Below, piece after piece: positions 1-30,266 of a stretch of DNA of 64,000 bases (within the stretch, counting starts at the first letter, position 1; every line of letters begins with the position of its first letter). A program made the position numbers and the translations under genes. The stretch is taken from the NCBI GenBank assembly GCA_049968235.1, contig JBMFRC010000005.1, positions 1 through 64,000 of the forward strand, read 5' to 3'. The notes below the pieces were generated by a model that searched no databases, was not told the origin of the DNA, and saw only the letters and a program-made list of their open reading frames with translations. This stretch comes from Candidatus Hydrogenedens sp. (GTDB lineage Bacteria; Hydrogenedentota; Hydrogenedentia; Hydrogenedentales; Hydrogenedentaceae).

Positions 1-1
1 C

Positions 2-118
2 GGTCCACAGGATTGGAAAATAGGTTTGTCTGAATTATTGCGGTTAATACAATTCTTCAATACAGGTGGTTATCACAGTTGCCCAGACAGCGAAGATGGC
101 TACTGTCCTGGATTATAG
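2..118 (+). CDS. 3' fragment (C-terminal 38 aa) of a secreted protein ending in a dockerin/EF-hand-like repeat (..DWKIGLSELLRLIQFFNTGGYHSCPDSEDGYCPGL*)
   Basis: Frame 2 is open from the window edge to TAG at 116-118. The tail is near-identical to the C-terminus of the 868-aa protein at 27690..30266 (IGFTELLRLIQIFNTGGYHYCPGESEDNFCPGL). Confidence 0.5.
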   Translation, partial: GPQDWKIGLSELLRLIQFFNTGGYHSCPDSEDGYCPGL

Positions 119-439
119 GAGAAGCAGTAGAAAAACAAAAGTTGATTTTAGTCACTTTGCAGGATGGTAGATAGAGTTACAATTATCATATGCGTATTAT
201 GAAAAGAAAGAAACAGAGACAGTTATTTAGTATAGAAGAACGCAGGTAAAAATGCCTGTACTCCATTCGTGCAAAAAATATTTCCCCCCTACATTTAGAA
301 TATTACGGGGGGAGGAATTTTTTGAATGGAGTTGTTTTTATGAATTTATGAAATATTGTATTGTATGATAAAATCGTTTTTGGATTAGTGGTTTTGTTGG
401 AATTAATATGAACATTTACAATATTGCGTGGGTAAACAA

Positions 440-847
440 TTATGCGGAGAGGGGAAATGGGTATGGAGAGGAATCGTTATCTTCAGGTTTAACTTTCCAT
501 ATATCAGGAGTCAGAGGAGGTAATCCGTAGGCAAGGCGTGCTTTATCACATTTTATTTCTGGATAGCCGTTTTTATAAGAAGGTTCTATTTCTCTGCATA
601 CAGATGGTCTTCGCCAATAAATTGTGCAGAAAACATGTTTCCCGATAGTTCCTAATAATGCAGTACAACGTGGATAGGGTTTGTTTGTTCCTTTCATAAC
701 ACAACGGAAATCATTGAGGTCTTCACATAATTCTTCGGGAACACCATCTGGTTTATATCTGCTTTGTTCTCTCCAGTAAAAAGAAACTCGGTAAAAAGCA
801 CAGCATGCACCACAAGTTAAACATGGATTTACCATATTTCCGTTCAT
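440..847 (-). CDS. YkgJ/UPF0153-family Cys-cluster protein (CxxCxxCC zinc/iron-chelating domain)
   Basis: N-terminal CLTCGACCAFYR motif (CxxCxxCC) plus further conserved Cys. The ORF is 135 aa. Confidence 0.55.
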   Translation of the reverse strand: MNGNMVNPCLTCGACCAFYRVSFYWREQSRYKPDGVPEELCEDLNDFRCVMKGTNKPYPRCTALLGTIGKHVFCTIYWRRPSVCREIEPSYKNGYPEIKCDKARLAYGLPPLTPDIWKVKPEDNDSSPYPFPLSA

Positions 848-909
848 GTCCTTATATTCGTATTCTCTCTCAAAACAAGAATATTTTGTATGGAATCAAT
901 ATCGGAGAT

Positions 910-1188
910 TTATTTTTTGTCTTTTCCCCAGATTGTATCTTTTTCTTTTTGTCTTTCTTCTTCTAATTTTTGTATTTCTTTACTCATTTCTGCTTTTATC
1001 ATTTCCAATTCTTCATAGGAAGAGGCGTTATTTAATTTGGATTCAAATGATATTTTTATTTCGGCAATTTTTGAATCGTATTTGCGATTTATTTCTGCAA
1101 TCTTTTCCTTTTGTTCCGGGGTTAACTTTTTTACTTCCCCGCTCATCTTATTCAGTCTTTCCATGGCTAATTCATAGGCACTTTTCAT
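910..1188 (-). CDS. hypothetical small coiled-coil protein (K/E-rich)
   Basis: 92-aa ORF with a charged heptad-like composition. A GGAGG-like sequence lies upstream. The antisense ORF at 846..1190 is low-complexity and was rejected. Confidence 0.4.
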   Translation of the reverse strand: MKSAYELAMERLNKMSGEVKKLTPEQKEKIAEINRKYDSKIAEIKISFESKLNNASSYEELEMIKAEMSKEIQKLEEERQKEKDTIWGKDKK

Positions 1189-1200
1189 AGTGTTCCCTCC

Positions 1201-1737
1201 TTAAAAAGAGAATTCATCGTCCAGTATTGAGGTAATAAATCGTTCTATTGAAATAGGATAATAACGGCTATCCGGTGTAATGAAGATACCTGTAGTAATA
1301 TCCTCTTTCCGTTCCAGTTCATCTAAACTATTTGATAATGCGGTATCAATATTTTCTTCCAGATGTTTGATTTCCAAAAATTCGGATTTGCATTCTACAG
1401 GTCGGTTCGGGAAACCTAAAAAGCCAAATATACGACCTGCAATTTCCATATTTACATTGTCTTCACCAAATAGGTCGCTATATTTAGTCTTATAGTAAGA
1501 GGGCGTGATAACAAATTGAGGTGATACATGAATTTTCCCACGAACGCATAAAGAGCGGTAACGGGCTTCTAATGCATCACCGAGGCAAATATAGGGCAAC
1601 TCATGATAACCCTTAATAATCCCATATCGGGGCTTCTTTATAATTACCGTCTCTGAGAAAATTCGATACATCTCTTCTCTATTTAGCGTCATAGTATTTC
1701 CCAGTACATAAGTTTGTGATAGCGTTTTAACCATCAA
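1201..1737 (-). CDS. hypothetical protein
   Basis: 178-aa ORF with no recognisable motif, in the same-strand cluster 440..5430. Confidence 0.4.
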   Translation of the reverse strand: MMVKTLSQTYVLGNTMTLNREEMYRIFSETVIIKKPRYGIIKGYHELPYICLGDALEARYRSLCVRGKIHVSPQFVITPSYYKTKYSDLFGEDNVNMEIAGRIFGFLGFPNRPVECKSEFLEIKHLEENIDTALSNSLDELERKEDITTGIFITPDSRYYPISIERFITSILDDEFSF

Positions 1738-1781
1738 TATTATCGTTTAATATTATAACGCTTGTGGGTTTATAATTTCTC

Positions 1782-2228
1782 TTAATTGTTACCCTGTCGT
1801 AAAGGCATACGGCTGTAAGATACAATTTCCACAGAACCTTTCCATTTGTTATAATGATATAAGATAGAAAGGGTATCCCCTGTATTTATATGTGAACAAA
1901 ATTCATCTTCCAGTGAAATTTCTTTCTGCACTTTTCGTCCGTTACGCATCGGAAATTCAACAATAAGCTGACACCCTATTTTATCTGAGCCGGGTAGGTT
2001 GTGTTCCTGCCCAACTATAATCGTTTTATTAATAACACTTCCTTCTGTGTAGATGAGTTTTTTTTCGGAGTTTTGTTGGTTCAGAAAAAGTCCGGAGAAA
2101 AGAAAAAGAGCCGTGCAAAGTACAAATAAAAAAAAGAAAATATTCCTTTTTTTGTATAGACGAGGTCCTGTTATCGGATGAAGGACTTCGCTTTGTATAT
2201 ATCCTGTTCTTTTATACTTTATGCCCAT
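1782..2228 (-). CDS. hypothetical membrane-anchored protein (single N-terminal TM; DUF3592-like architecture)
   Basis: Hydrophobic stretch FFFLFVLCTALFLFSGLFL followed by a soluble domain. Confidence 0.4.
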   Translation of the reverse strand: MGIKYKRTGYIQSEVLHPITGPRLYKKRNIFFFLFVLCTALFLFSGLFLNQQNSEKKLIYTEGSVINKTIIVGQEHNLPGSDKIGCQLIVEFPMRNGRKVQKEISLEDEFCSHINTGDTLSILYHYNKWKGSVEIVSYSRMPLRQGNN

Positions 2229-2261
2229 AAATAATTTCTTGTTTATGGATTATAGGTGTAA

Positions 2262-5430: not shown

Positions 5431-5594
5431 TTCATTTTCTTATTGCACCTTGAAATTTAATTAAGTCCGAATATTTGATATAATAAAGCATATCTTATCA
5501 TCAAAAGAAAAATTGTTGGGCAATTTTTGGGTTTGTATTCTTTAAATAATTATATAACAACAACTTATGTTCTTGTAAAAAAATAGATTTAAAT

Positions 5595-5621
5595 TAAAGA
5601 AAAATTTTATTTTGCCGATAA
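5595..5621 (+). promoter_or_regulatory. sigma-28 (FliA) class-3 flagellar promoter: TAAAGAAA-N11-GCCGATAA
   Basis: TAAAGAAA at 5595-5602, an 11-nt spacer, then GCCGATAA at 5614-5621. This matches the consensus TAAAGTTT-N11-GCCGATAA and lies about 45 bp upstream of the flgM ATG. Confidence 0.55.
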
Positions 5622-5666
5622 GATATATGTAAAATAGAAAACAATACAGATTTGGAGGAAAGTGAA

Positions 5667-5987: not shown

Positions 5988-6011
5988 CATATACTTAAAC
6001 TTGCTATTCTC

Positions 6012-6050
6012 AACGGCGTATGTTTTTCAACATACGCCGTTTATTTTTTT
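6012..6050 (+). terminator. rho-independent terminator after flgM
   Basis: Stem ACGGCGTATG (6013-6022) pairs with CATACGCCGT (6031-6040), followed by TTATTTTTTT. Confidence 0.6.
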
Positions 6051-6122
6051 GATATTTACGGAAACATTGTATATACAAAAATCGTTTTTCATGATAGAAT
6101 ATTAAAATAAAGGAATATTGAT

Positions 6123-6857: not shown

Positions 6858-6900
6858 GTAAGTCTGGGAAAGTGGTTTTTGAGCGTATTTGTAAAGACCT

Positions 6901-7614: not shown

Positions 7615-7670
7615 GGAAGATTTACTTTTTTGTATGATATATTTTCTATGTTATATTTAAAAGGTATCCT

Positions 7671-13704: not shown

Positions 13705-15273
13705 CTATTTTTCTGTTTTTTGTTCCTGTGGGAAGGCATTCGGGTCTAATTGTTTCAGGACACTGCGGTAACCTTCCATATCTTCAAGACGCAGGAGCAT
13801 AATATTTACAATCCCGAAGCCATATGTTTTAGGAGCCATCGTTCGGGTATATTTTGGAGTTTGTTCTATACCTTCAAATCGGAGGGTATGTATTCCTTCG
13901 GAAAGTTCATGAATGTCTAAATAAACGGGAGCAATATCGAAGCCCGGAGCGGAGAAATCAATAGGCACTCCGAAAGGTTTACCATCCATGTAAGGTTGAA
14001 ATACACCGCTTAACAAAGAGAATATCATGTAGGAATCTATACGATAAGTCCCTTTTTGTTGAATCTCAAGGTCAAATTCAATACTTGCTTTGGGAGTCAG
14101 CGGTATATAATAAAGATAATATTCGGTCGGAACGGTTAGAATAGCAGGGTCAGCACGATAAACGAGGCTATCAAATTTCTGTGCTTTATATGGAGGGACT
14201 CGTTTATCTGCTGGAGGCAAAGGTTCATCCCATGTGGTAGGGGTTGTTTGATACCAGAAGGCTACGGAACTAACCCAATCCTGTCGTTCCTTGAAACCTG
14301 CAAGGTCCATTTTTGTTACAGGTGCTTTCTCATTCATGATACTGCCTTTATGTTCAATGACGACCTTCAAACTTTTTTCAAAATGTATAGGGTCAGGGAT
14401 ATGCCAGCGATATACACTTACACGGTCTCCAGCAAATACTCCTTCATACATGGGGACGCCATAGTAAGGAGCATAAAACTCACGGAAGCCCCATGCATCG
14501 TTAAAATAATCTTCTGTTCCTGTGCCTTTTAATTGGGGCATCTCTGCTCCGTCAATATAGAAGAAGTCATCCCCTTCTCCAAACCAGCCTGTTTCCATCT
14601 GTAAAGTAGAATAAACAGTCCCTACATAATATCCCTTCCCCTGTGTTTCAAGGAGGGTATAATTTCCGGGCTTTGCCGGATATTCCTGACGATAACGAGC
14701 ATGAAAATAAGGCGTATCCGGAGTCCATTCGTTAAGTTTTTTCCAGTCAATATAATAGTAAAAAGAACCTACCCGTATATCCGATTCATTTGTTACTGTT
14801 ACCTTGATGTGTTTCTGGAAAGGCATAGGCCAGAAACATGCACGAGCACGACCTCTGGATGTATTAACAACAACCTGGGATATAAATTCCTTATGTCCCG
14901 CCAGACCCAATCCGAAGAAATCACCAATAGGTGCTTCCACACTGGGTTTTTCCAGACCATCATAGTAAATTCTTAAAACGATACTGCGGGGATAAAATAA
15001 GTTTTCAGTAGCAATGGTGTTCCAGAAATGGGTAATCATTCCGGGACCCTCTTCATCCATCAGGACTAAAGTCTGATTCGGCTCAATAGCACGGGCATCT
15101 CCATTCTTCTCTATATCCTCAGCGGAGCTACTATTTCGCATACTTTGTCCAGCAAGTGGTTTCAGGAGAGATTCAAACGAAGTGTCTCCAAAGGTATTAT
15201 CCCCTACAAAAAGAATGGCTATAACGAGAGGGAATAATAGTGATAAAAAACAAACATCTTTACTGAGTTTCAT
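13705..15273 (-). CDS. hypothetical secreted protein (possibly a DUF2961/GH172-like jelly-roll; low confidence)
   Basis: Signal peptide. Aromatic-rich 522 aa. No catalytic motif I can assign with confidence. Confidence 0.45.
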   Translation of the reverse strand: MKLSKDVCFLSLLFPLVIAILFVGDNTFGDTSFESLLKPLAGQSMRNSSSAEDIEKNGDARAIEPNQTLVLMDEEGPGMITHFWNTIATENLFYPRSIVLRIYYDGLEKPSVEAPIGDFFGLGLAGHKEFISQVVVNTSRGRARACFWPMPFQKHIKVTVTNESDIRVGSFYYYIDWKKLNEWTPDTPYFHARYRQEYPAKPGNYTLLETQGKGYYVGTVYSTLQMETGWFGEGDDFFYIDGAEMPQLKGTGTEDYFNDAWGFREFYAPYYGVPMYEGVFAGDRVSVYRWHIPDPIHFEKSLKVVIEHKGSIMNEKAPVTKMDLAGFKERQDWVSSVAFWYQTTPTTWDEPLPPADKRVPPYKAQKFDSLVYRADPAILTVPTEYYLYYIPLTPKASIEFDLEIQQKGTYRIDSYMIFSLLSGVFQPYMDGKPFGVPIDFSAPGFDIAPVYLDIHELSEGIHTLRFEGIEQTPKYTRTMAPKTYGFGIVNIMLLRLEDMEGYRSVLKQLDPNAFPQEQKTEK

Positions 15274-17939: not shown

Positions 17940-17948
17940 AAATATACC

Positions 17949-18934: not shown

Positions 18935-20623
18935 TTATACTTTCTTTGCAGGAATAACACAGCGAAAACCAACTGTATTAAGTTTTGATTCCGGGAATAG
19001 TCCCTTGCGTGCTGTGCAGGTAATTCCTTCCGGTCCGGAATTCCAACAGCCACCGCGTAATGTTCTCAGTGGAGGATTGGGAACTGTTTCAGGATGGCTT
19101 CTCGCTATAGGGTAGGGTAGGTAGTAATCTCGTGTCCATTCCATAACATTTCCTGCAAGGTCATAAACACCTTCGGGTGTTTTTCCTTCTTCATGCATGG
19201 TTACAATGGAAGGCATGCCTAAATAATCATTAAAATTGCAATGGATTGTATCGGGTGGTGTATTGCCCCAGGGATATTTCCGATTTTCTTTTCCTCTTGC
19301 GGTGAATTCCCATTCCTTTTCTGAGGGTAACATTTTACCTGCCCATTGTGCATAAGCGTTGGCTTCAAACCATGAAATACCGACAATAGGTTGGTCCGGA
19401 CCGTTCAACATGGGGTCGTACCAATAGCGGGGAAGCGGTGCAGATGTCGCCTCGATATATTTTTTGTATTCTGCAACTGTTACAGGAAAAATATCTATCC
19501 AGAAGGGTTCTACAAATACTTCTTCTTCTGGCGCCTCTTCTGGAACTGCGTTGTTCCCCATAAGAAAATACCCACCCTCGATAAAAACCATATTTTCGGT
19601 AGATATGGCTTTATTCGATTCGGATGAAGTAATAATATGTATGGATTTCTCTTTATAGGAACTTTCAAAACTTTGTTCAAGAGCCATACGGAAATCTCGT
19701 GCCGTTTGCCAACGGTCCTCACGGTCTTCGGCAAGTGCTTTGTTCAGGACATCGTTGATAGATGGTGATATATCATTTCTTGTTTGTAAAAGGGGGACAT
19801 ACTGGTCAACAGGGGAACGTAATGTTAGTAATTCATATAAAATAAGCCCTACGGTATATAAATCAGAGCGTGTATCTGAGGGCCACATCTTCTTTTGCTC
19901 AGGTGAAGCATACGCATAAGTTCCGACAACACTCTGCTGTTGTGAAGGACTGACATTCGCGGTTGCTTGAGATATGGATTCTTCTACTGCAATAGCAAGA
20001 CCAAAATCCAGAACTTTTATCTTTTCTCCCGGCATAACCATAACATTTTCGGGCTTTAAATCACGATGGGTTACCCAACGGTGAGCGTATTCTAATGCCT
20101 GCAGTATTTGCAAGGTAAATTGTATGGCGATTCGTATTGGTAAAAACTGGCGGTCTATCCGTTGCTTTCGTAACATGTTCCGCAGAGATTGTCCTTCTAA
20201 GTATTCCATGCTCAAAAATAAAAACCCTTCGTTTGTATATGCTACATCGTGAACTGCAACAATATTTTCATGTCGTAAACGCCGTGCCAATTGTGCCTCT
20301 TTAATAAATAATTGCCCCGCTTTGGGTGTTTTCAATAAACTGGGATGCAAAAATTTCAACGCTACTACATCATCCAGTAATTCATCACGTGCTTTATACA
20401 CATACCCCATCCCTCCTTTTCCTATGATTCCTTCAATTATATACCGGTCATCAACACGGTCTCCTTCACGAAATTCAATTCGAAGAGATGCATCGTTCCC
20501 CATATTCGGTACCACAATAGGTTGGTGGCAATTAAAACAATAACTCGTTTTCCCTTGCACCACAGCAGGTACCCATATTTTTAAACCACAACTTTTACAT
20601 ATTACAGCAATAATAGGTTGCAT
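18935..20623 (-). CDS. Ser/Thr protein kinase fused to a C-terminal formylglycine-generating-enzyme (FGE-sulfatase) domain, with an N-terminal Zn-ribbon
   Basis: Kinase motifs GKGGMGYVYKA, VALK, HRDLKPEN, DFGLA and SPEQ. The C-terminal region (FIEGGYFLMGNN...RGGCWNS...) is typical of PF03781. N-terminal CKSCG...CFNCHQP. Confidence 0.75.
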   Translation of the reverse strand: MQPIIAVICKSCGLKIWVPAVVQGKTSYCFNCHQPIVVPNMGNDASLRIEFREGDRVDDRYIIEGIIGKGGMGYVYKARDELLDDVVALKFLHPSLLKTPKAGQLFIKEAQLARRLRHENIVAVHDVAYTNEGFLFLSMEYLEGQSLRNMLRKQRIDRQFLPIRIAIQFTLQILQALEYAHRWVTHRDLKPENVMVMPGEKIKVLDFGLAIAVEESISQATANVSPSQQQSVVGTYAYASPEQKKMWPSDTRSDLYTVGLILYELLTLRSPVDQYVPLLQTRNDISPSINDVLNKALAEDREDRWQTARDFRMALEQSFESSYKEKSIHIITSSESNKAISTENMVFIEGGYFLMGNNAVPEEAPEEEVFVEPFWIDIFPVTVAEYKKYIEATSAPLPRYWYDPMLNGPDQPIVGISWFEANAYAQWAGKMLPSEKEWEFTARGKENRKYPWGNTPPDTIHCNFNDYLGMPSIVTMHEEGKTPEGVYDLAGNVMEWTRDYYLPYPIARSHPETVPNPPLRTLRGGCWNSGPEGITCTARKGLFPESKLNTVGFRCVIPAKKV

Positions 20624-20752
20624 TCTGCCTCTTTACTCCACCACGAAAAATAATATTATCTTTACATGAATCGTGTATAATTTATTGTCAGTAATATCTT
20701 ATTATATTTGGAGTATTTTAGTCGAATTTATAAAATCATATAGGAAACCATA

Positions 20753-21661
20753 ATGTGGGAAAAGAGGTTTACTATTCTTTTTGTATTTATTGGATTTTGT
20801 TTTTTTTCTCTATCAAGCAATGCAGTAGAGGTAGTTATACCTTCCGTTTCTGTTAATACGGGAGAATGCTTCGCAATAAATATTAACTTATATAGAGTTG
20901 AAGATGAAGATATTCGTACATCTGTAATTGCTTTTGCGTTTGACCCTTTGAAGATACAAATAGGTTGTAATAATTCGTTAAACTCGGATACTAACGGTGA
21001 ACCCTGGGTATATGACTCAGAAACATCTGACGGAGAACAGCCGATTGTATTAAACAATTCACTATTGAGCATAGGTATAAAATATCGCGTTGCTATATAT
21101 CCACAGGGGGTGATGATTGTAGTCCTCTGGGATGCTTCAGAGGCAATCCCTGCCGGCACATTATTTACAGTTCCATGTAAATTGAAGGATGGCGCCATAT
21201 CCGGGGATAAACTCAACACTCTCCTGATTTCAAAAGATTCGCCAATTTATATCATGAGAACCTTTCCGGATAATCATGTAGAAAACCTAACATTTTATTG
21301 TTCTTTTGCAGATATAAACGCTTTACCTGTAAATTCCACACTTATTTCAGGTTATGTTTATGTAAAGAACGCAACGGATGGAGAACCTGAAGGAGGAGAG
21401 GGCTATCTTGAAGGTGGATTTGAAGGAACTTCAATAGAAGGAACAACAGAGGGTAGTATTGTAGAAGGTATCACAGAAGGAACAAGTTCTGAAGGCATTC
21501 CCGAGGGAAATTCAACAGAAGGGGAAAGACCTATTTGTGGTTGCAGAGAAAGGTACTCTCCAGAACAAAGAAATATGATGTCCTTCTTACAAATTCTAAA
21601 ATTGAATAATATGAATATAGGATTTATGATTGCCCTTGTTGTAATACTTCGTCGATTGTAG
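20753..21661 (+). CDS. secreted protein with an EG-repeat low-complexity linker and a C-terminal hydrophobic+RRL tail
   Basis: Signal peptide. EGGFEGTSIEGTTEGSIVEGITEGTSSEGIPEGNSTEGE repeats, of the same type as in the 868-aa protein. Tail IGFMIALVVILRRL*. Confidence 0.5.
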   Translation: MWEKRFTILFVFIGFCFFSLSSNAVEVVIPSVSVNTGECFAININLYRVEDEDIRTSVIAFAFDPLKIQIGCNNSLNSDTNGEPWVYDSETSDGEQPIVLNNSLLSIGIKYRVAIYPQGVMIVVLWDASEAIPAGTLFTVPCKLKDGAISGDKLNTLLISKDSPIYIMRTFPDNHVENLTFYCSFADINALPVNSTLISGYVYVKNATDGEPEGGEGYLEGGFEGTSIEGTTEGSIVEGITEGTSSEGIPEGNSTEGERPICGCRERYSPEQRNMMSFLQILKLNNMNIGFMIALVVILRRL

Positions 21662-21721
21662 TTAAACTATCTCCAATCTAGAAGCAGGATAGTTAATTTA
21701 TCATTAATAGAAAGGAATAGC

Positions 21722-22540
21722 ATGAGACCTGTTCTTATTCATATTGGTATATTTGAACTTCATTCGTATGTTGTTTTTATGGCATTAGGACTTTTAGTGG
21801 GAGTATCACTTGCCTTGCGAGAGAATAATCGCCTCCCCCAACCTTATCCTGTATCGGGGAAAGTAGGAATCTGGGGGTTAATTGGCGGATTGATTGGAGC
21901 AAATGCTTATTTCATAATTCAATATGAAGGAATTCTACAACTGTATAAAATTATTTTTTTCTGGTCAGGTGGCTATGTGTTTTTTGGCGGTTTCATTGGT
22001 GGAGCCATTGGGGTCTGGCTTTATTTAAGGAAACAAAAAGTTCCTTTTCTTCCTTGTGCGGATATAGGTGCTCCTTATCTTGCTCTGGGGCATGCAATAG
22101 GGAGATTGGGTTGTTTTACAAACGGTTGCTGTTGGGGTGATTTATGTAACGCACCCTGGGGTATTGTATTCCCAAAAGATGATGGGATATATGCGTATCA
22201 CACCACTGAACATTTATTACATGTTGATGATTTGACGCCATTGCCTATTCATCCCACGCAATTATATGAAGTCTTCGGACTTATTATTATCTTTTTCTTA
22301 CTACGTATGATTTACCACAACAAACAATACAATGGACAGGTCCTATTATGGTATTTTTGCCTTTACGGAGCATGGCGATTTTTTGATGAAAATTTCCGCG
22401 GTGATAGTCCCCATGCAACATTTGGTATGACCACTTCTCAGTTGATTGCTTTATCTGCTTGCCTTATCAGTGGATTTATTATCTTTATATTCTATTTGCT
22501 TATAGTACGTAAAAAAGAAAAGTTGTCATCTAATAATTGA
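21722..22540 (+). CDS. lgt: prolipoprotein diacylglyceryl transferase Lgt
   Basis: Multi-TM protein with the Lgt signature GRLGCFTNGCCWG. Length 272 aa. Confidence 0.8.
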   Translation: MRPVLIHIGIFELHSYVVFMALGLLVGVSLALRENNRLPQPYPVSGKVGIWGLIGGLIGANAYFIIQYEGILQLYKIIFFWSGGYVFFGGFIGGAIGVWLYLRKQKVPFLPCADIGAPYLALGHAIGRLGCFTNGCCWGDLCNAPWGIVFPKDDGIYAYHTTEHLLHVDDLTPLPIHPTQLYEVFGLIIIFFLLRMIYHNKQYNGQVLLWYFCLYGAWRFFDENFRGDSPHATFGMTTSQLIALSACLISGFIIFIFYLLIVRKKEKLSSNN

Positions 22541-22550
22541 TGGGCTAAAT

Positions 22551-24881
22551 TTACAAAGATTGCCATTCCAGCATAATTGCAGAAAGAGGAGGTATTTCGA
22601 TAGTAATCGTTCCATCGGTATCCGGTTTTACGGGTATTGGTGAAGTGGTATTGTTGGGTTGATTATATAACATCATATTATCACGGTAATCTTCAGGCAA
22701 ATGTAAAATTGCTTTTTGTGTTTCTGGCAGATAATTAACTAAAAACTGGGCGGAACGATTTTTATATGCCCATCGACAGGTAAGAATAGAACGGAAATGA
22801 ATGATGTCTTTTCTCGGTGTTATCATTGGCACATCTTTATCACCACTATACGGGAATGGTTTTAACATTCTGCCAAAGAAGAGATAGGCATGCCCATTCC
22901 CAGTTCTCCAGAGATTCAGGTTACGAACCAAAGTTAATATCTCCTGCTGGTCAGGCCCTTTATCCCATGGGGCTGAACTCCATTCCCATGCTATTTCCCC
23001 ATTTTTCCGCAGGTTAAGGCTTAACATATCTCCCTGAACGAAAGAGATAGCTACACGCTGGTGCATATTGTAAGTGCTTTTTTCTTCATCAATAAAATGG
23101 CTTGTTCCGTTCTGGTTCCCCATAAAATTGTTTAAATATTCATGGAAAACATAGCCATAAGCAGGGACCGGCACACCAATTGCAAGACTGAGATAAGAAC
23201 GACTGTCATTAAACAAAAGATAAGGAATGAACGGCTCGGCTGAGTTGGCTTCACAGCCGATTAGCATATTGGGATTATGCTGATGAATAAGTTCAAGTAT
23301 TCTACGGTAGAGGTCTTTCATAGATTCTGTTTGCCACAATCCGGGTCCCGGGGGATGCCCATGTGTATGCGAATAACAGCGATAACAATTCCCTCCTAAA
23401 TTCTGGTCAAAATACTGTAAGTAATCAATGTTATATGGAACAATTTTTGCAATTTCATTTACTACGACTTCTTTTACCCATTCATTGGCAGGACACAAGT
23501 CATAGCCAATCCGTTGTGCATGAGGACCTGCACAAATACCGTTCTCCGCAGGCTTACCATCAGGGGCATAAGTAACATATCGCACAATCCGTTTTTCCTG
23601 AAATTCTTTCCTCATATCGTAAGCAGGGTCGGTATTACTGTGAATTGTATACGCCACTCCACTGGCATACAAGCCGATAAGATTCCCCGATTTATGCAAT
23701 TCCTCACAAAAACGAACAAAATCCTGCAAATCGCCATATGGAGGCCAGACATACGGTGGTGCCCATGGAGCACTACCTTCCCAATGCATTAGTAATGCCA
23801 TTACAGGAGATGATAATTCTTCTGCATATTTTTGCAGAATGGGCAAAGCGTTGGTATACGGATAATATTCTGGATTGGGAGTCATTTCTACACCTAAATC
23901 ACGCTGTCCTCTCACGGGATACATGATAATTACCGGCGACTTAAAATACCAATCAGGTATCATCTTGTTTTCTTCCAATTTCGGTGGTTTATACATTGCT
24001 GAATTTTCCCACCAGTTTCGGTATATATCCCCCGCATCATGCCAATCCCCCTGAAACGTTCCTAATACCATCGGATATGGGAGAATATATTCTGTTTCAC
24101 AAACGGGACCGGTAAAAAGACGAAAGTCAAGATAAATACCTCCAGAAGGATGTTTATGAAATTCAACACCTTTAGGTGTTCCTTTGGAGTCATGAGCCGA
24201 AAAATACAAACCTGCACGAGGCGTGTAATATGCCATAAATTGCATCTGGGCAGGCCCAGGATAAGTGCCATTCCAGCCCATTGTCGGATGCTCTATGGGC
24301 TGCCAGCGTAACCAACTTTTTTCACGAAGTTCCGAATCCTCAACGATAACCCCTTCTCCACCCGGCCAAAAAATTCGTGCATCTCCACCGGAATTAGGTA
24401 AGTCATTAGGAACCACAACCACAGGAAAATCTATATGTTCCAACCACAAACCCGTTTCATTCTTTACCTTCATCGTCCAATATGTTAATGATGATTCTAA
24501 AGGACAATTTATAAAAACAGTTACATCTAAAGGTTTTTTGTCCATTTGAAAAAACTCAATTTCAACCTGTATTTCTTTTTTCTCCACATTATCTTTTCGG
24601 GAAAAACGAATTTGAGAGGATTGTAAAGAAGTCAGGTCTATTGCCTCACCATTATCATTACGAAGTCGCAGTTTAAAAAGTTCACGAGGCTGGTCCGATG
24701 AGAAAATTAATTCCTGACCATTACTTTCCAGGGATTTTATTTCTCCGGTAACCTCATCCAATCGCAAAGCATAATGCTCCGTTTTTATCTCATGTATCAT
24801 ATCTGAATATACTCCCTGAAATTGAAATGTAGTAAATAACAAAAATAAAACTGCGCATATAAAAACTCTCGACCATAACAT
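22551..24881 (-). CDS. hypothetical secreted protein (large; glycoside-hydrolase-like?)
   Basis: Signal peptide. 776 aa, W/Y-rich. No assignable catalytic motif. Confidence 0.5.
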   Translation of the reverse strand: MLWSRVFICAVLFLLFTTFQFQGVYSDMIHEIKTEHYALRLDEVTGEIKSLESNGQELIFSSDQPRELFKLRLRNDNGEAIDLTSLQSSQIRFSRKDNVEKKEIQVEIEFFQMDKKPLDVTVFINCPLESSLTYWTMKVKNETGLWLEHIDFPVVVVPNDLPNSGGDARIFWPGGEGVIVEDSELREKSWLRWQPIEHPTMGWNGTYPGPAQMQFMAYYTPRAGLYFSAHDSKGTPKGVEFHKHPSGGIYLDFRLFTGPVCETEYILPYPMVLGTFQGDWHDAGDIYRNWWENSAMYKPPKLEENKMIPDWYFKSPVIIMYPVRGQRDLGVEMTPNPEYYPYTNALPILQKYAEELSSPVMALLMHWEGSAPWAPPYVWPPYGDLQDFVRFCEELHKSGNLIGLYASGVAYTIHSNTDPAYDMRKEFQEKRIVRYVTYAPDGKPAENGICAGPHAQRIGYDLCPANEWVKEVVVNEIAKIVPYNIDYLQYFDQNLGGNCYRCYSHTHGHPPGPGLWQTESMKDLYRRILELIHQHNPNMLIGCEANSAEPFIPYLLFNDSRSYLSLAIGVPVPAYGYVFHEYLNNFMGNQNGTSHFIDEEKSTYNMHQRVAISFVQGDMLSLNLRKNGEIAWEWSSAPWDKGPDQQEILTLVRNLNLWRTGNGHAYLFFGRMLKPFPYSGDKDVPMITPRKDIIHFRSILTCRWAYKNRSAQFLVNYLPETQKAILHLPEDYRDNMMLYNQPNNTTSPIPVKPDTDGTITIEIPPLSAIMLEWQSL

Positions 24882-25237
24882 GAGTTATCTCCTGTGCTGG
24901 TTATTGTTACTTCAATTATTATACTATTTATGCTGATTATCTATTCCATCAGTGTGATAGAGATTAAATGTAATGTATAAAAACATTGTTACAATGATAC
25001 TAACAAAACCTAAATTTCTTCAAACAATCGGCGAAATACATGCAATTTATTCTACAAAACTTCACCAACACACCTTAACAGAATACTAATGTCCCTTAAT
25101 CCCCCAGATATGTACCCTGCCTATATCAAATTTCTGAATTATACAATATATGTAGGATGTAAGATATCTTATATAAATACCTATGGATAAGAGTTAGGAT
25201 AAAAAGATATTAGTAGAAGAGCAAAAAGGAGAAATAT

Positions 25238-25363
25238 ATGTCTGCGATTAAGTATCGCCCGAATGCAAAAACTACCCTGCAAATGCGAACGATGATTAAA
25301 GAATCGAAAGAACCGATGACAGCACTATCAAAAATGAGTAAAAGAATTATAAAAATTTTTTAG
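25238..25363 (+). mobile_element. remnant of an IS481-family transposase N-terminus (41-aa ORF MSAIKYRPNAKTTLQMRTMIKESKEPMTALSKMSKRIIKIF*)
   Basis: Resembles the conserved IS481-family N-terminal HTH region (...HKNAKTT...R..I...v.e...p...vA..fgiS..T.yKW). It is truncated by a stop codon, and no DDE domain follows. Confidence 0.35.
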
Positions 25364-25476
25364 ATTTCTATTCTACAAATTTTTTTGTTTAAATTTGATT
25401 TCTAAATCCAAACTTTTACAGGATATAAGGTAATAAAAGGGGTTAAATTAACTTTTTTTAGGGATAGGATATAGCG

Positions 25477-27381
25477 ATGACAATGAACAGGTTTAGAACT
25501 AAGGTAAGGGTAAGATGTTTGGTGTTTTTTCTTTTTTTGGGTATGTCTTGTATGTGGGTGTTTGGAAGTGATGGGGATGAGGAGACAGGTTTTGTGTTGG
25601 TAAGAAAAGGGAAGCCTGCTTGTTGTATTGTTGTGTCGGAAAATCCGACGCCTTCAGCACGCCTTGCATCGTTGGAATTGAAATATCATATTTTAAAGAT
25701 GACCGGTGTAGAATTACCTATAAAAAATGATACGCAGGTTGTGTCGGGGCGGAAAATACTTGTCGGGGATAGTCATCTTGCTAATGATTTAGGTTTTCGG
25801 TGTTCGGACCTGGCTCCACAGGAATATATTATTGCTTTTCGCCCAGATACGCTTATTCTTTTAGGTCGGGACTGGGAGGATACGGAAGCAAATCGTCATG
25901 AACTGGGCAGACCGATGAGTTGCGGAAATACCCTTGCGGATACGCGTCAGAAAATTGATTACTGGCAAACTGTGGGTATGCCATCGCGTAGTCAGGGGGA
26001 AATGGAATTGCCCGGTGTATATGATGACCAGGGGACATGTTATGCGGTATATCATTTTCTTGAACAGTTTTGTGGCATACGCTGGTATGGTCCGAATGAG
26101 ATAAATATTATTATTCCCACTCAATCCACGCTTATAGTAAAAGGCATGGATATTTGCCGTTCACCTGCGTTGAAATATCGGGACGCTTTATGGTCGGGTT
26201 CCTGGCCTTTTATGCAAAAGCAATGGGGGACGGTATCCCGTTCTGAAGTATTTCTATTCTGGCGACGATTGCGTTTAGGAGGTGAGAAATGGGCAGGGAA
26301 TCATACATTCCATAAACAGACAATTGAGAAGTATTTCACCGACCCGGAATATCAGGCAAAAGGCTCTGGCTCCGGAACACAACTGTGTTATACTCATCCC
26401 AAACTGATACAAGAAGTCTCGCAAATGGCAGATGACTTTTTTGACGGAACTAAGAATGTGCCGGAGGGCTGGAAAGCAGTCGGAAACTATTTCGCTATTG
26501 TCCCTGATGACAATCTGAAATTCTGCCAATGTAACCGCTGTCGGGAATTAATAACCTCCGGTCGCGATATGTGGACAGGACAATTTAGTAGTGGTCGCAT
26601 GAGTAACTATATCTTCTCCTTTATAAATGCGGTGGCAAGGGAATTGCAAAAGACGCATCCGGATAAATATATAACCGCCCTTGCTTATTGGGAATATGCC
26701 TTACCTCCCCGCGGTTTTGATATTGAATCGAATGTTTCAATAGCCCCATGTTTACATACATGCTACTATGCCATTCACAAAGAAATGCGAGAGAACGATA
26801 TGAACCTATACCATGAATGGCTGAAAAAGGCACAGTCGCCTGTTTTCTTATGGAATTATTATCACCATCCGATGGAAGCTGGCTTAGTTGGGGGATTTAA
26901 ATGTTTCCCAAATATCATGGTTCATAAGACAGCACAAATTATGAGGATGTTTATCGAAGATGGAATACGCGGTATTTTTATATGTGGTGAACAGGATATG
27001 TTAGAAGGGTATATCATTGCTAAAATATGGGACGACCCGACACAGGATGTAAATGTAATATTAGATGAGTTTTTTCACCTTTACTTTGGTAATGCCAGCG
27101 AACCTATGAAAATTTTTTACTTACAAATTGAGCAAATTGCATGCAATCCGGAGAACTACCCCAAACCCTATTACAAGCCAAATGGGATTGACTGGAAAAA
27201 TGTAGCGTGGACTACCTTAGGCACAGAAGAACGAATGAAAGAATTAGAAAAACTCATTTCACAGGCACAGTCCTCCGCAAAAACTGATACAGAAAAACAG
27301 AGAGTTCAACAATGGCGGGAAGCACTATGGGAATGGATGCTTAAAGGCAGAGAAAAATATCTTTCACAATTAACTAAATAA
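25477..27381 (+). CDS. hypothetical secreted protein (DUF4838-like / glycoside-hydrolase-like TIM barrel?)
   Basis: Signal peptide. Cys cluster CQCNRC. Length 634 aa. Confidence 0.5.
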   Translation: MTMNRFRTKVRVRCLVFFLFLGMSCMWVFGSDGDEETGFVLVRKGKPACCIVVSENPTPSARLASLELKYHILKMTGVELPIKNDTQVVSGRKILVGDSHLANDLGFRCSDLAPQEYIIAFRPDTLILLGRDWEDTEANRHELGRPMSCGNTLADTRQKIDYWQTVGMPSRSQGEMELPGVYDDQGTCYAVYHFLEQFCGIRWYGPNEINIIIPTQSTLIVKGMDICRSPALKYRDALWSGSWPFMQKQWGTVSRSEVFLFWRRLRLGGEKWAGNHTFHKQTIEKYFTDPEYQAKGSGSGTQLCYTHPKLIQEVSQMADDFFDGTKNVPEGWKAVGNYFAIVPDDNLKFCQCNRCRELITSGRDMWTGQFSSGRMSNYIFSFINAVARELQKTHPDKYITALAYWEYALPPRGFDIESNVSIAPCLHTCYYAIHKEMRENDMNLYHEWLKKAQSPVFLWNYYHHPMEAGLVGGFKCFPNIMVHKTAQIMRMFIEDGIRGIFICGEQDMLEGYIIAKIWDDPTQDVNVILDEFFHLYFGNASEPMKIFYLQIEQIACNPENYPKPYYKPNGIDWKNVAWTTLGTEERMKELEKLISQAQSSAKTDTEKQRVQQWREALWEWMLKGREKYLSQLTK

Positions 27382-27689
27382 TAACTTCCTTAAAACATAA
27401 ATTTTATATAATATTTTCTAAATATATATGTCAAATATTTGACATGTTATTTAAATAATAGATAAAATAATATGAAATAAGCAAAAAATATAATAAAAAA
27501 TTTAGTTTTTATTTAGTTGATAAATATTTATTTGCCATTGACTTAGAATTTTATAAAAAAAAAAAAATAATAATGTAAAATAAGTGTAGTTGTGATATAA
27601 TTAAAACATTAGTTTCATGAGAAGGGAATTGTACCTTTGGTTAATAAAGTTACTCAACAGTGAATCAAAAATTTAAAGGAGCAATATTT

Positions 27690-30266
27690 ATGTTAAAAAA
27701 ATTTTTTGAACCATCATTAAAAAATCATGCAGGGATGATAGGGTTATTTTTGATTCTATCATTTTTTGTGATTGTAAACACAGGTTGGTCTGCAATCTTG
27801 ATTGATAATATCGAGGATTTGCAGAAAATCGGAAATGACCCGGAGTATCCGATAAACGAGTCATATGAGTTATCGCAGGATATTGATGCAAGTATCACAT
27901 ATTCCTGGAACGAAGGATCTGGCTTTCAGCCGATAGGGTCGTCATCCAATCCGTTTAGTGGAACTCTGGATGGGAAAGGTTATCAGATTTTTAATTTATA
28001 CATTAACCGTTCCTCGGAGGATTATGTAGGTTTGTTTGGTAGGGTAAGTAGTAACGGAAAAATTCTAAACTTAGGTTTGGAAAATAATATAGTTATTGGT
28101 AAAAACTATGTTGGAGGGCTTATCGGTTCGAATGAAGGTCGTGCTGATACTTGCTATGCCAACGGTTCTGTTTCAGGCACAAATAATGTAGGTGGACTTG
28201 CTGGAAATAATACAGGGACATTGAATAAATGTTATTCTACAAATATAGTTGCTGGTGCTACGACTGTTGGTGGTTTAGCGGGAAGGAATGCCGGCACAAT
28301 TTCCCAATGCTATTCCACAAGTAATGTATCGGGGACATCCGCTGTAGGCGGTCTCATTGGTGCGAATGCAACATGGAACGCATCCCTGCGTAGATGTTAT
28401 GCTGGAGGAAATGTTTCAGGCACATCCAATATCGGCGGACTCATTGGAAGTATGTCGTGGGGCTGGGCATTTGAAACATATTCTATAGGACATGTAAGTG
28501 GCTCCTCAAGAATAGGCGGTCTCGTGGGATACCGTTTCTTCCTTGCATTTATATTCATGAGTTATTGGGATAAGGATACATCCGGTCTTGCCACATCAAG
28601 TGGCGGAACTGCCAAAACAACAGAACAAATGAAACAGCAGTCCACATATACAAATTGGTCTTTTGGTTCTGTATGGGGCATTATTCCCGGTGTAACCTAT
28701 CCATACTTTATCTGGACTTATCCCGTCCCAAATCTCTTAGGTTTAACGGTGGAAGAGGCAAATAGCGTTCTTACCAGCACGGGTTATGTGTTGGGAACGG
28801 TATCTGAACAATGTAGTTTCACTACTCCTGCCGGGTTAATAATGATTCAACAACCATTTCCAGGACAGTATTTAGAACCAGGCAGTCCTGTAAATGTAAC
28901 TATATCTACAGGACCCTGTCCACCAAATACTGTACCTAATGTTGTAGGATTAAAACAATCTATTGCTGAAAATGAGATTGTTTCTGCAGGATATGTTGTG
29001 GGAACAGTAGGAGAACAATGCAATAATACAATTCCTGCGGGTTATGTTATAAGTCAGGAACCTGCTGGGGGTGAGGAATTGGAACCTGGAAATGCGGTCA
29101 ATATTATTGTATCAACAGGTCCATGTCCTATTGCAGTGCCGAATGTGGTGGGTATGACCGAAGAGAATGCGGATGTAACATTAGTATCTGCAGGATTATT
29201 CTTAGGTGTCGTAAGCGAACAATGTAGCGACACTATTCCGCAAGGTAGAATTATCAGTCAGAACCCATTGGCAGGAACACAGGTCATTCCAGGAAGTTAT
29301 GTTGATGTAGTAATATCCTCAGGTCCTTGTGGAGAAGGGACGTCCGAAGGTATTCCTGAAGGAACACTGGAAGGTATAGAAGAAGGTATTGTGGAAGGAA
29401 CTCCGGAAGGTATTCCGGAAGGAGTTGAGGAAGGTATAATTGAAGGAATCCCTGAAGGTATTTTAGAAGGAACACCGGAAGGTGTAGAAGAAGGTATAGT
29501 GGAAGGAACACCGGAAGGAACGCCAGAAGGTTCTATTGAAGGCGAAAATGTAATTACTCCAAATGTTGTTGGGCAACCATTTGTAAATGCGGTATTCGCT
29601 ATTAATAATGCTCAATTGGTAGTCGGTGTAATTACTGAAGTTTGCACTGATGAATACCCGTTTGGTGTTATAATTGCTCAGGAACCTGTTGGTGGTTCGA
29701 TAGTAGAAATCGGGTCTATGGTCAATCTATGGGTATCCATAGGTCCCTGCCCACCTGAAGGAGAAGGAGTTGTTGAAGGGACACCCGAAGGAACACCGGA
29801 AGGTATTCCCGAGGGAGTTGTTGAAGGAACGCCTGAAGGAACACTCGAAGGAGTTGTTGAAGGGACACCCGAAGGAACACCGGAAGGTATTCCCGAGGGA
29901 GTTGTTGAAGGAACGCCTGAAGGTACATCCGAAGGAACCCCAGAAGGTATAGAAGAAGGCGAGGGAGAAATCATAGGAAGACATAGTGCAGACCAGAATA
30001 ACGATAAACGGATAAGTTTTACTGAACTGCTTCGTGTAATTCAATTATTTAATTCCTGGGGCTATCATTGTCAATCTGGAACTGAAGATGGATTTGCTCC
30101 GGGTGCCGGTGGAGATACCTCATGCACTCCACATACTTCTGATTACAATCCCCCTGATTGGAAAATAGGTTTTACTGAGCTACTGCGACTGATACAAATC
30201 TTTAATACGGGTGGCTATCATTATTGTCCGGGAGAAAGTGAAGATAACTTCTGCCCAGGATTGTAA
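27690..30266 (+). CDS. secreted mosaic protein: GLUG-motif repeats + 4 PASTA domains + TPEG/EG low-complexity linkers + twin dockerin/EF-hand-like C-terminal repeats
   Basis: GLUG-type repeats (VGGLIGSNEG..., VGGLAGNNTG..., VGGLAGRNAG..., VGGLIGAN...). Four PASTA-like units (VPNVVGLKQSIAENEIVSAGYVVGTVGEQ...STGP etc.). EGTPEGIPEGVEEG... repeats. C-terminal DQNNDKRISFTELLRVIQLFN... and DWKIGFTELLRLIQIFNTGGYHYC. The likely start is ATG 27690 with RBS AAAGGAG, rather than the ORF-track GTG at 27660. Confidence 0.65.
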   Translation: MLKKFFEPSLKNHAGMIGLFLILSFFVIVNTGWSAILIDNIEDLQKIGNDPEYPINESYELSQDIDASITYSWNEGSGFQPIGSSSNPFSGTLDGKGYQIFNLYINRSSEDYVGLFGRVSSNGKILNLGLENNIVIGKNYVGGLIGSNEGRADTCYANGSVSGTNNVGGLAGNNTGTLNKCYSTNIVAGATTVGGLAGRNAGTISQCYSTSNVSGTSAVGGLIGANATWNASLRRCYAGGNVSGTSNIGGLIGSMSWGWAFETYSIGHVSGSSRIGGLVGYRFFLAFIFMSYWDKDTSGLATSSGGTAKTTEQMKQQSTYTNWSFGSVWGIIPGVTYPYFIWTYPVPNLLGLTVEEANSVLTSTGYVLGTVSEQCSFTTPAGLIMIQQPFPGQYLEPGSPVNVTISTGPCPPNTVPNVVGLKQSIAENEIVSAGYVVGTVGEQCNNTIPAGYVISQEPAGGEELEPGNAVNIIVSTGPCPIAVPNVVGMTEENADVTLVSAGLFLGVVSEQCSDTIPQGRIISQNPLAGTQVIPGSYVDVVISSGPCGEGTSEGIPEGTLEGIEEGIVEGTPEGIPEGVEEGIIEGIPEGILEGTPEGVEEGIVEGTPEGTPEGSIEGENVITPNVVGQPFVNAVFAINNAQLVVGVITEVCTDEYPFGVIIAQEPVGGSIVEIGSMVNLWVSIGPCPPEGEGVVEGTPEGTPEGIPEGVVEGTPEGTLEGVVEGTPEGTPEGIPEGVVEGTPEGTSEGTPEGIEEGEGEIIGRHSADQNNDKRISFTELLRVIQLFNSWGYHCQSGTEDGFAPGAGGDTSCTPHTSDYNPPDWKIGFTELLRLIQIFNTGGYHYCPGESEDNFCPGL
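29330..29960 (+). repeat. in-frame tandem DNA repeats encoding (T/I)PEG/EG linkers (two blocks, 29330-29540 and 29755-29960)
   Basis: Near-identical ~70-bp units, for example gttgttgaagggacacccgaaggaacaccggaaggtattcccgagggagttgttgaaggaacgcctgaagg twice at ~29770 and ~29850. Confidence 0.8.

What the first reader, a model, noticed from the sequence alone, without database searches (positions are those of the whole stretch)
1..30266. A recurrent C-terminal module (I.F(T/S)ELLR.IQ.FN.GGYH.C....ED..CPGL) shared by at least two proteins in the window: a possible new sorting or docking tag
The partial ORF at 2..118 ends ...DWKIGLSELLRLIQFFNTGGYHSCPDSEDGYCPGL*. This is almost identical to the last 33 aa of the 868-aa GLUG/PASTA protein at 30170-30266. 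That protein carries the module twice, while the partial one shows at least one copy. The conserved terminal -CPGL* with paired Cys and the dockerin-like helix suggest either a cohesin-binding dockerin variant or a C-terminal secretion or attachment signal. A third protein (20753..21661) shares the upstream EG-repeat linker but ends in a different hydrophobic+RRL tail.
Basis: seen in the sequence. Interest (0 to 1): 0.65.

Follow-up and report, generated by a model that had tools for sequence, protein, structure and literature searches.

The report
Dockerin-like C-terminal docking domain, Hydrogenedentota
The recurring tail is a real, uncatalogued 95-residue calcium-loop domain found at the very end of dozens of secreted proteins per genome in Hydrogenedentota bacteria; it looks like a divergent dockerin, and the same window encodes a membrane-anchored cohesin that could be its receptor.

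Summary
The partial ORF at 2..118 and the 868-aa GLUG/PASTA protein (27660..30266) end in the same module: 29/38 residues identical, with many synonymous DNA differences.

Each half has an EF-hand-type loop, a helix (ELLRVIQFFN) and GGYHC...TEDG[FY]xPG. Two Cys pairs are gained and lost together, which suggests two disulfides.

The domain is not local. It occurs in 2830 representative protein clusters and in at least 28 loci of one MAG, in records of 35-64% GC. In 139 of 149 top hits it lies within 5 residues of the C-terminus, behind many different surface or enzyme domains.

No Pfam or NCBIfam model reaches its threshold. Sub-threshold hits are EF-hand and Dockerin_1, and dockerins head the weak fold matches.

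Best reading (about 0.45): a Ca2+- and disulfide-stabilised dockerin-like docking tag with this cohesin as receptor. Binding is untested, and the cohesin family was found only in Ca. Hydrogenedens-like (36-41% GC) DNA.

The parts
2..118 (+). 3' end of a gene cut by the window edge: second half of the C-terminal module (GPQDWKIGLSELLRLIQFFNTGGYHSCPDSEDGYCPGL) plus the stop codon
27660..30266 (+). 868-aa secreted carrier protein: N-terminal signal-like hydrophobic segment (27690..27794), GLUG x4, PASTA x4, two EG-repeat linkers, C-terminal module
29331..29546 (+). first EG-repeat linker of the 868-aa protein (aa 558-629)
29754..29969 (+). second EG-repeat linker (aa 699-770), directly upstream of the module. 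The 40 aa upstream of the module are at least 40% E+G in 60 of 146 carriers elsewhere.
29976..30263 (+). complete ~95-aa C-terminal module (aa 773-868). AF2 model: two helices (module residues 15-26 and 66-78), pLDDT 74.
29982..30104 (+). half 1 of the module (aa 775-815): HSAD-QNNDKRISFTE loop, ELLRVIQLFN helix, GYHC, TEDGFAPG
29991..30026 (+). loop 1, DQNNDKRISFTE: canonical 12-residue EF-hand Ca2+-loop signature (D1, N3, D5, I8, E12)
30129..30260 (+). half 2 of the module (aa 824-867): PHTSDYNPPDWKIGFTE, ELLRLIQIFN helix, GGYHYCP...SEDNFCPG with the terminal Cys pair
30141..30179 (+). loop 2, DYNPPDWKIGFTE: 13-residue, non-canonical variant of the loop
20753..21661 (+). 302-aa candidate receptor. 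Signal peptide (20753..20824), cohesin-fold domain (20825..21367), EG linker (21377..21526), conserved CGC (21536..21544), C-terminal hydrophobic segment plus RRL (21614..21658).
21722..22540 (+). lgt (prolipoprotein diacylglyceryl transferase). It lies directly downstream of, and co-directional with, the cohesin gene in every homologous locus examined. Listed as conserved context, not as a proven part.

Best explanation
The tail is a previously uncatalogued, folded, ~95-residue extracytoplasmic domain. It arose by tandem duplication of a ~45-residue unit. Each unit has an EF-hand-type Ca2+ loop, an exiting helix (ELLR[VL]IQF[FY]N) and a GGYHC...TEDG[FY]xPG extension. The architecture is that of a dockerin (two loop-helix 'F-hands'), enlarged and stapled by two inferred disulfides (C32-C53 and C87-C97 in profile numbering). 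It is fused, usually through a flexible EG-rich or similar linker, to the extreme C-terminus of dozens of Sec-exported adhesin-like and enzyme proteins per genome across Hydrogenedentota. Proposed mechanism: after export the domain folds with Ca2+ and disulfides. It then acts as a docking tag that tethers its passenger non-covalently to a cell-bound receptor. In this organism the best candidate receptor is the single-cohesin protein at 20753..21661, held at the envelope by its own EG linker and C-terminal hydrophobic/RRL tail. This would parallel the OlpA/OlpC-type single-cohesin anchors of Clostridium thermocellum. Shown: the domain, its duplication, its loop signature, its C-terminal position, its breadth and passenger diversity, and the cohesin fold of the neighbouring protein. 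Inferred: Ca2+ binding, the disulfides, surface location and, above all, module-cohesin binding.
Confidence: 0.45

Rival explanations
1. The module is a folded C-terminal export or sorting domain, analogous in role to the T9SS C-terminal domain. It would be recognised in the periplasm by an outer-membrane translocon or sorting enzyme, and might be cleaved or replaced by an anchor. It would not be a cohesin ligand.
For: The position is almost always the extreme C-terminus (139/149). There are dozens of carriers per genome with very diverse passengers, as for T9SS CTD or PEP-CTERM proteins. Terminal copies keep the last Cys pair (136/141) far more often than internal copies (11/30), so the terminal version is special. 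The module is much more widespread than the cohesin family.
Against: No known signal domain is built from EF-hand loops. There is no hit to any T9SS, PEP-CTERM, LPXTG or other sorting model in Pfam or NCBIfam. The module is helical, not the beta-sandwich of the T9SS CTD. Sixteen of 149 proteins carry 2-4 copies, including internal ones, which suits a binding module better than a signal. No candidate sorting enzyme recurs next to carrier genes.
Confidence: 0.2
2. The module is a Ca2+-dependent envelope anchor. It would bind a non-protein or non-cohesin component (LPS or capsular glycan, S-layer, peptidoglycan-associated polymer), in the way SLH or LysM domains hold proteins at the surface. The cohesin would serve another, unidentified partner.
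For: The breadth across 35-64% GC genomes, without the Hydrogenedens cohesin being found there, fits a universal envelope ligand. The acidic loops and the conserved His, Tyr and Trp residues could form a Ca2+-mediated glycan site.
Against: The module shows no similarity to any known carbohydrate-binding or wall-binding family. The recurrent structural neighbours are dockerins, which bind proteins. An orphan cohesin with no other dockerin-like family in sight would be left unexplained.
Confidence: 0.2
3. The similarity is only a recent local duplication between two paralogues, or a low-complexity coincidence, with no wider meaning.
For: Only two genes in this 64-kb window carry it.
Against: The two copies are 76% identical at the protein level, with many synonymous DNA changes. 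There are thousands of homologous clusters with E-values down to 1e-131 and hundreds of loci in many genomes.
Confidence: 0.01

Closest known systems
Type I dockerin modules of cellulosomal enzymes (Pfam PF00404; e.g. PDB 2vn5_B, 2ccl_B, 4fl4_A, 8x39_B)
   Same: Both are tandem duplications of a Ca2+-loop plus helix (F-hand). Both are usually placed C-terminally behind a linker on many different secreted passengers per genome. Dockerins are the recurrent top structural neighbours. Dockerin_1 gives sub-threshold hits spanning both halves.
   Different: The module is about 95 aa rather than about 60-70. Each repeat carries an extra GGYHC...TEDG[FY]xPG extension, and four conserved Cys suggest two disulfides. 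Loop 2 has 13 residues and is non-canonical. Position 12 is Glu, as in classic EF-hands. Loop positions 10-11 are L-[ST], not the S/T pair described in PMC13487519. It does not reach the PF00404 threshold. It occurs in a putatively diderm candidate phylum, on adhesin-like rather than cellulase passengers.
Single-cohesin cell-surface anchors OlpA/OlpC of Clostridium thermocellum (PDB 3ul4_A, 4dh2_C) and non-cellulosomal cohesins (e.g. Archaeoglobus fulgidus 2xdh_A, C. perfringens 2vo8_A)
   Different: The anchor is a C-terminal CGC motif plus hydrophobic segment plus RRL, not SLH repeats. The Pfam Cohesin match is only sub-threshold (E=0.027). The family is confined to Ca. Hydrogenedens-like DNA. 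Its ligand is unknown.
EF-hand Ca2+-binding motifs (Pfam EF-hand_1/5/6/7)
   Same: Loop 1 fits the canonical D-x-[DN]-x-[DN]-x-x-I-x-x-x-E loop. Between 19 and 27 of 40 module sequences give sub-threshold EF-hand hits.
   Different: No entering helix is evident (loop plus exit helix only). The domain is extracytoplasmic and Cys-stapled. All hits are below the gathering cut-offs.
Genome-wide C-terminal tags of surface proteins (T9SS C-terminal domain; PEP-CTERM, LPXTG and MYXO-CTERM signals)
   Same: The genomic behaviour is the same: a strictly C-terminal element shared by dozens of otherwise unrelated secreted proteins in one lineage.
   Different: There is no transmembrane helix or basic tail, no beta-sandwich and no model hit. 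Multi-copy and internal occurrences exist.

Membership tests
Dockerin type I (Pfam PF00404) | Two tandem duplicated segments, each a Ca2+-binding loop followed by a helix (F-hand) | tested here: met
   Half 1 versus half 2 hhalign gives probability 99.8%, E 6.5e-29. The AF2 model places helices at module residues 15-26 and 66-78, each directly after a loop.
Dockerin type I (Pfam PF00404) | Match to the family HMM above the gathering threshold (22.9 bits) | tested here: not met
   The window protein gives no Dockerin_1 hit at E<=1. Six of 40 module sequences hit it, best E 0.0037. The P0056 hit scores 17.8 bits (E 0.004), below the 22.9-bit cut-off.
Dockerin type I (Pfam PF00404) | [quoted passage not shown] | tested here: not met
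   Loop 1 is canonical (104/171 fit the EF-hand pattern). Loop 2 is 13 residues long and 0/171 fit.
Dockerin type I (Pfam PF00404) | [quoted passage not shown] | tested here: not met
   Position 10 is Leu (84-86%). Position 11 is Ser/Thr (81-84%) in both halves.
Dockerin type I (Pfam PF00404) | Fold superposes on solved dockerins | tested here: inconclusive
Dockerin type I (Pfam PF00404) | Ca2+-dependent binding to a cohesin | not testable with these tools
   This needs a complex prediction or biochemistry. Only same-genome co-occurrence is shown (window; MAG DAOOVZ01).
Cohesin (Pfam PF00963), for the protein at 20753..21661 | Match to the family HMM above the gathering threshold (24.1 bits) | tested here: not met
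   15.1 bits, E 0.027, profile positions 1-109 of 139. A profile of the family gives no significant PDB sequence hit.
Cohesin (Pfam PF00963), for the protein at 20753..21661 | Nine-stranded jelly-roll beta-sandwich that superposes on solved cohesins | tested here: met
Cohesin (Pfam PF00963), for the protein at 20753..21661 | Binds a dockerin | not testable with these tools
   No binding assay or complex model was available.
EF-hand (Pfam EF-hand_1/5/6/7) | Family HMM above threshold and a helix-loop-helix with a 12-residue loop | tested here: inconclusive
   The loop 1 signature is met. HMM hits occur in 19-27 of 40 sequences but all below the cut-offs (best 23.1 vs 25.9 bits). No entering helix appears in the model.
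Transmembrane-type C-terminal sorting signals (PEP-CTERM, LPXTG, MYXO-CTERM, GlyGly-CTERM and others) | Short signature motif, then a hydrophobic transmembrane stretch, then a basic tail at the C-terminus | tested here: not met
   The module ends ...EDNFCPGL with no hydrophobic stretch. NCBIfam gives no hit even at E<=10.
T9SS C-terminal sorting domain | Beta-sandwich CTD recognised by the TIGR04183/Pfam models | tested here: not met
   No Pfam or NCBIfam hit. The predicted structure is two helices plus loops.
GC-type dockerin domain (NCBIfam; existence and name recalled from memory, not verified) | Match to the NCBIfam model | tested here: not met
   No NCBIfam release 20.0 family matched the module at E<=10. 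No paper with that term was found.

The most novel reading that the evidence does not exclude
Hydrogenedentota organise much of their surface proteome with a non-cellulosomal cohesin-dockerin-type system built on a new dockerin class, a 95-aa disulfide-stapled double F-hand. Dozens of adhesins and enzymes per cell would plug into envelope-anchored cohesins. The Ca. Hydrogenedens cohesin at 20753..21661 would be one lineage's receptor, with still-unrecognised divergent cohesins (or other receptors) in the rest of the phylum.
Probability: 0.3. Interest if true: 0.75.

Novelty: new variant of a known kind. Interest (0 to 1): 0.55.

Why it matters
Hydrogenedentota are uncultured, widespread bacteria of digesters, sediments and sludge, and their cell biology is essentially unknown. 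This domain marks dozens of secreted proteins per genome and more than 2800 protein clusters overall, yet no Pfam or NCBIfam model reaches its threshold on it. A model for it would immediately annotate the predicted surface and secreted proteome of a phylum. If it is a dockerin class with a cohesin receptor, cohesin-dockerin assembly would extend from cellulosomes to general surface display in a putatively diderm candidate phylum. It would also supply a new orthogonal, disulfide-stabilised docking pair for protein engineering. If it is instead a sorting domain, it points to an undescribed secretion or attachment pathway.

Tried and rejected
1. Sequence searches of the module and of the cohesin family against PDB chains found nothing significant, only weak EF-hand and dockerin hints.

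2. I tested for conserved clustering of cohesin and module genes. None of the 18 other cohesin loci has a module gene within 10 kb. The 6-kb spacing in the window is therefore coincidental.

3. I searched for a recurrent partner gene (sortase, peptidase or cohesin) next to module genes in 78 loci. The only large 'families' were antisense ORFs of the module- and linker-coding DNA. No other protein combining an EG linker with a transmembrane tail was found there.

4. I asked whether the ~130-aa beta domain that follows internal module copies in giant proteins (P0034, P0035, P0037, P0039, P0040) is a cis cohesin. hhalign against the window cohesin family gave probability 0.3%, and no PDB sequence matched. 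Pfam sees only a partial NPCBM_assoc/NEW3 match. This is not supported at the sequence level; the fold could not be tested.

5. A regex scan for canonical dockerins in about 0.9 Mb of sampled loci found none. The power is low because whole genomes could not be scanned.

6. NCBIfam sorting-domain models were run against the Cys + transmembrane + basic tails of the cohesin and two other window proteins. Only a sub-threshold Loki-CTERM hit appeared.

7. Literature searches for this module, for Hydrogenedentota surface proteins and for 'GC-type dockerin' found no description.

8. The AFDB fold library was unavailable.
Full report
**1. The observation**

Translating 2..121 gives GPQDWKIGLSELLRLIQFFNTGGYHSCPDSEDGYCPGL followed by a stop. 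The 868-aa ORF at 27660..30266 ends ...SDYNPPDWKIGFTELLRLIQIFNTGGYHYCPGESEDNFCPGL* and carries a related stretch about 50 residues upstream, DQNNDKRISFTELLRVIQLFNSWGYHCQSGTEDGFAPG.

The two termini share 29 of 38 residues (E=2e-20). The upstream stretch shares 18 of 35. At the DNA level the copies differ at many synonymous positions, so this is conserved protein sequence and not a recent duplication.

A six-frame pattern scan of the whole window finds only these three stretches. Pfam confirms PASTA x4 and GLUG x4 in the 868-aa protein and finds nothing at threshold in its last 100 residues, only EF-hand_1 at E=0.22. NCBIfam has no model for the tail even at E<=10. The window is 37% GC.

**2. 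One domain, not two copies**

Homologues from the 5.8-billion-protein collection align over about 95 residues. Where named, nearly all are from Candidatus Hydrogenedens or Hydrogenedentota MAGs. Many are short 'partial' proteins.

The consensus from 171 domain instances is:
- Half 1: H-[ST]-A-D-x-[ND]-x-[DN]-x-x-I-x-L-[ST]-E-L-L-R-V-I-Q-F-[FY]-N-x-G-G-[YF]-H-C ... T-E-D-G-[YF]-x-P-G
- Half 2: ... C-x-P-H-x-S-D-Y-x-P-x-D-W-x-I-x-L-[ST]-E-L-L-R-[LV]-I-Q-F-[FY]-N-x-G-G-Y-H-x-C-P-x-x-x-T-E-D-G-[FY]-C-P-G

Profiles of the two halves match each other at hhalign probability 99.8%, E=6.5e-29. The unit of conservation is therefore a single, internally duplicated domain. In the window it spans aa 773-868, DNA 29976..30263. 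The partial ORF at 2..118 shows only its second half because the window starts there.

**3. Anatomy**

- **Loop 1.** Loop 1 (DQNNDKRISFTE in the window) has the canonical EF-hand spacing: D1, N/D3, D/N5, I8, E12. It fits the PROSITE EF-hand pattern (recalled from memory) in 104 of 171 instances, including the window copy.
- **Loop 2.** Loop 2 (DYNPPDWKIGFTE) is one residue longer and never fits that pattern. In divergent relatives such as P0056 it is a canonical DLNGDWKINGTE.
- **Cysteines.** The four conserved Cys are present or absent in pairs. For C32/C53 the counts are both 162, neither 6, one only 3. For C87/C97 they are 147, 22 and 2. C32 is often present without C87 (16 cases). This points to two disulfides (inference).
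- **Terminal versus internal copies.** Terminal copies keep the last Cys pair in 136 of 141 cases. Internal copies keep it in 11 of 30.
- **Predicted structure.** The AlphaFold2 model (pLDDT 74, pTM 0.68) has two helices, at module residues 15-26 and 66-78. Each lies on the ELLRxIQxFN stretch directly after a loop.

**4. Relation to known folds and families**

- **Pfam.** Among 40 module sequences scanned at E<=1, 27 hit EF-hand_6, 21 EF-hand_1, 20 EF-hand_7, 19 EF-hand_5 and 6 Dockerin_1. All are below the curated cut-offs. In P0056 the Dockerin_1 profile (positions 3-54 of 57) spans both loop-helix halves of one module.
- **Foldseek.** Foldseek finds nothing significant, yet 12 of its 28 listed matches are dockerins, with target-normalised TM about 0.5.
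- **PDB sequence searches.** These give only weak EF-hand and dockerin hints.

The module is best described as a divergent, enlarged member of the EF-hand/dockerin superfamily that no curated model covers. It has the dockerin architecture of two tandem F-hands. [quoted passage not shown]

**5. Distribution and passengers**

- **Breadth.** An exhaustive profile search of 1.84 billion cluster representatives finds 2830 proteins at E<=1e-3, 2153 at E<=1e-10 and 780 at E<=1e-30.
- **Position and copy number.** In 139 of the best 149 the module ends within 5 residues of the C-terminus. Of these, 133 carry one copy and 16 carry two to four.
- **Copies per genome.** Among the best 78 loci, 28 come from one Hydrogenedentota MAG (JAKQOG01). 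A further 21 and 16 come from two MAGs whose records are titled 'uncultured Nitrospirales', and 4 from Ca. Hydrogenedens terephthalaticus. Mean GC of these records ranges from 35% to 64%.
- **Passengers.** Pfam on 67 full-length carriers finds 87 different families. These include InlB B-repeat, bacterial surface Ig-like, beta-helix, P-domain, LRR, Ig, Kelch, CHRD, PMP repeats, GLUG, FG-GAP and PKD.
- **Other features.** By a crude test, 68 of 102 full-length carriers have an N-terminal hydrophobic segment. In 60 of 146 an EG-rich linker precedes the module.

This is the behaviour of a lineage-wide tag on secreted and surface proteins.

**6. The third protein is a cohesin**

Pfam gives the protein at 20753..21661 only a sub-threshold Cohesin hit (E=0.027). 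Its family has 13-16 clusters of about 260-320 aa. The named ones are all Ca. Hydrogenedens sp..

The family has a conserved architecture:
- a signal peptide;
- a ~180-aa domain;
- an EG linker;
- an invariant C-G-[C] motif;
- a hydrophobic stretch (NIGFMIALVVIL) followed by RRL.

**7. How strong is the link between module and cohesin?**

For:
- Both occur in the same genome here. Both also occur in MAG DAOOVZ01 (L081 and L060).
- A cohesin implies a dockerin-type ligand, and this module is the only dockerin-like family seen.
- No canonical dockerin pair occurs in about 0.9 Mb of sampled loci (low power).
- Both proteins use the same EG-type extended linker.

Against:
- The cohesin family was found only in low-GC (36-41%) Hydrogenedens-like DNA. 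The module is also in genomes of 53-64% GC.
- The cohesin gene sits in a conserved context, kinase-FGE(-) | cohesin(+) | lgt(+). No module gene lies within 10 kb in any of 18 other loci.
- No recurrent neighbour accompanies module genes.

I therefore give the docking-to-cohesin mechanism about 0.45. A sorting or export-domain role and a non-cohesin envelope-anchor role each get about 0.2.

**8. Novelty and verdict**

No Pfam (2025) or NCBIfam (June 2026) model reaches its threshold on the module, and no paper describing it was found. It is a new variant of a known kind: the EF-hand/dockerin superfamily, with the behaviour of a C-terminal tag.

Interest is moderate to fairly high. The domain is large and uncatalogued and defines the predicted surface proteome of a candidate phylum. 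A candidate cohesin receptor makes the hypothesis directly testable.

Noticed in passing
window 21536..21658; 45395..49909 (-); 44656..45204 (-): Three secreted proteins end with a small Cys motif, about 15-25 residues, a hydrophobic stretch and a basic tail. The cohesin has ICGC ... NIGFMIALVVILRRL. The 1504-aa Ig-like/HYR protein has ISCS ... MFITMTGVGMFFVLRRKR. The adjacent 182-aa protein has FGCG ... FIVILFTSLFLTLRK. This looks like a second, MYXO-CTERM-like class of C-terminal sorting or anchoring signal. No NCBIfam sorting model reaches threshold; Loki-CTERM scores 14.2 against a cut-off of 19.9 bits.
   Followed up: partly
window 18935..22540; L079-L083, L084-L096: The gene order Ser/Thr kinase-FGE-sulfatase fusion (-), cohesin (+), lgt (+) is conserved in every cohesin locus where genes were called. 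Only about 50-60 bp separate the cohesin and lgt genes, so they may be co-transcribed. Given the invariant CGC motif before the cohesin's tail, a link to lipid modification is conceivable but was not tested.
   Followed up: partly
P0034, P0035, P0037, P0039, P0040 (relatives; not in the window): Giant multi-module proteins (up to 2552 aa with 4 modules) place internal module copies directly before a recurrent ~130-aa beta domain (motif ...ALGVxLxLPxGWxF...). Pfam sees only a partial NPCBM_assoc/NEW3 match. The domain shows no sequence relation to the window cohesin (hhalign 0.3%). Its fold and any interaction with the module are unknown.
   Followed up: partly
P0043, P0056, P0156 (relatives; not in the window): Divergent module copies occur as internal tandem domains in proteins with a C-terminal transmembrane helix and a Lys-rich tail. 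Some have a canonical 12-residue second loop (DLNGDWKINGTE) and lack the terminal Cys pair. Their source organisms are unnamed. They bridge the module toward ordinary dockerin and EF-hand sequences.
   Followed up: partly
window 1..118; hits P0001-P0020; loci at contig ends (e.g. L001, L003, L030, L059): Many module-bearing genes are truncated at contig ends just upstream of the module, as in this window. The likely cause is that the repetitive EG-linker DNA breaks assemblies. Carrier counts and passenger catalogues from MAGs are therefore underestimates.
   Followed up: no
L002, L004, L005 and others (CAYYRW01, CAYXPO01, CAZJTZ01): Records titled 'uncultured Nitrospirales' hold dozens of module copies, 61-71% identical to the Hydrogenedens one over most of the module. 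One hit is labelled Kiritimatiellae. Either the module crosses phyla or these bins are mislabelled. This was not resolved.
   Followed up: no
window 13705..15273 (-), 22551..24881 (-), 25477..27381 (+), 31664..33562 (-), 40830..43106 (+): The window holds several signal-peptide-bearing putative glycan-active proteins without the module: DUF2961, DUF6259, DUF4838, a GH5-like protein and a GH3+LysM protein. The tag is therefore not universal on secreted proteins of this organism.
   Followed up: no
window 18935..20623 (-): A Ser/Thr protein kinase domain is fused to an FGE-sulfatase (formylglycine-generating-enzyme-like) domain. The gene is conserved next to the cohesin gene in all related loci.
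   Followed up: no
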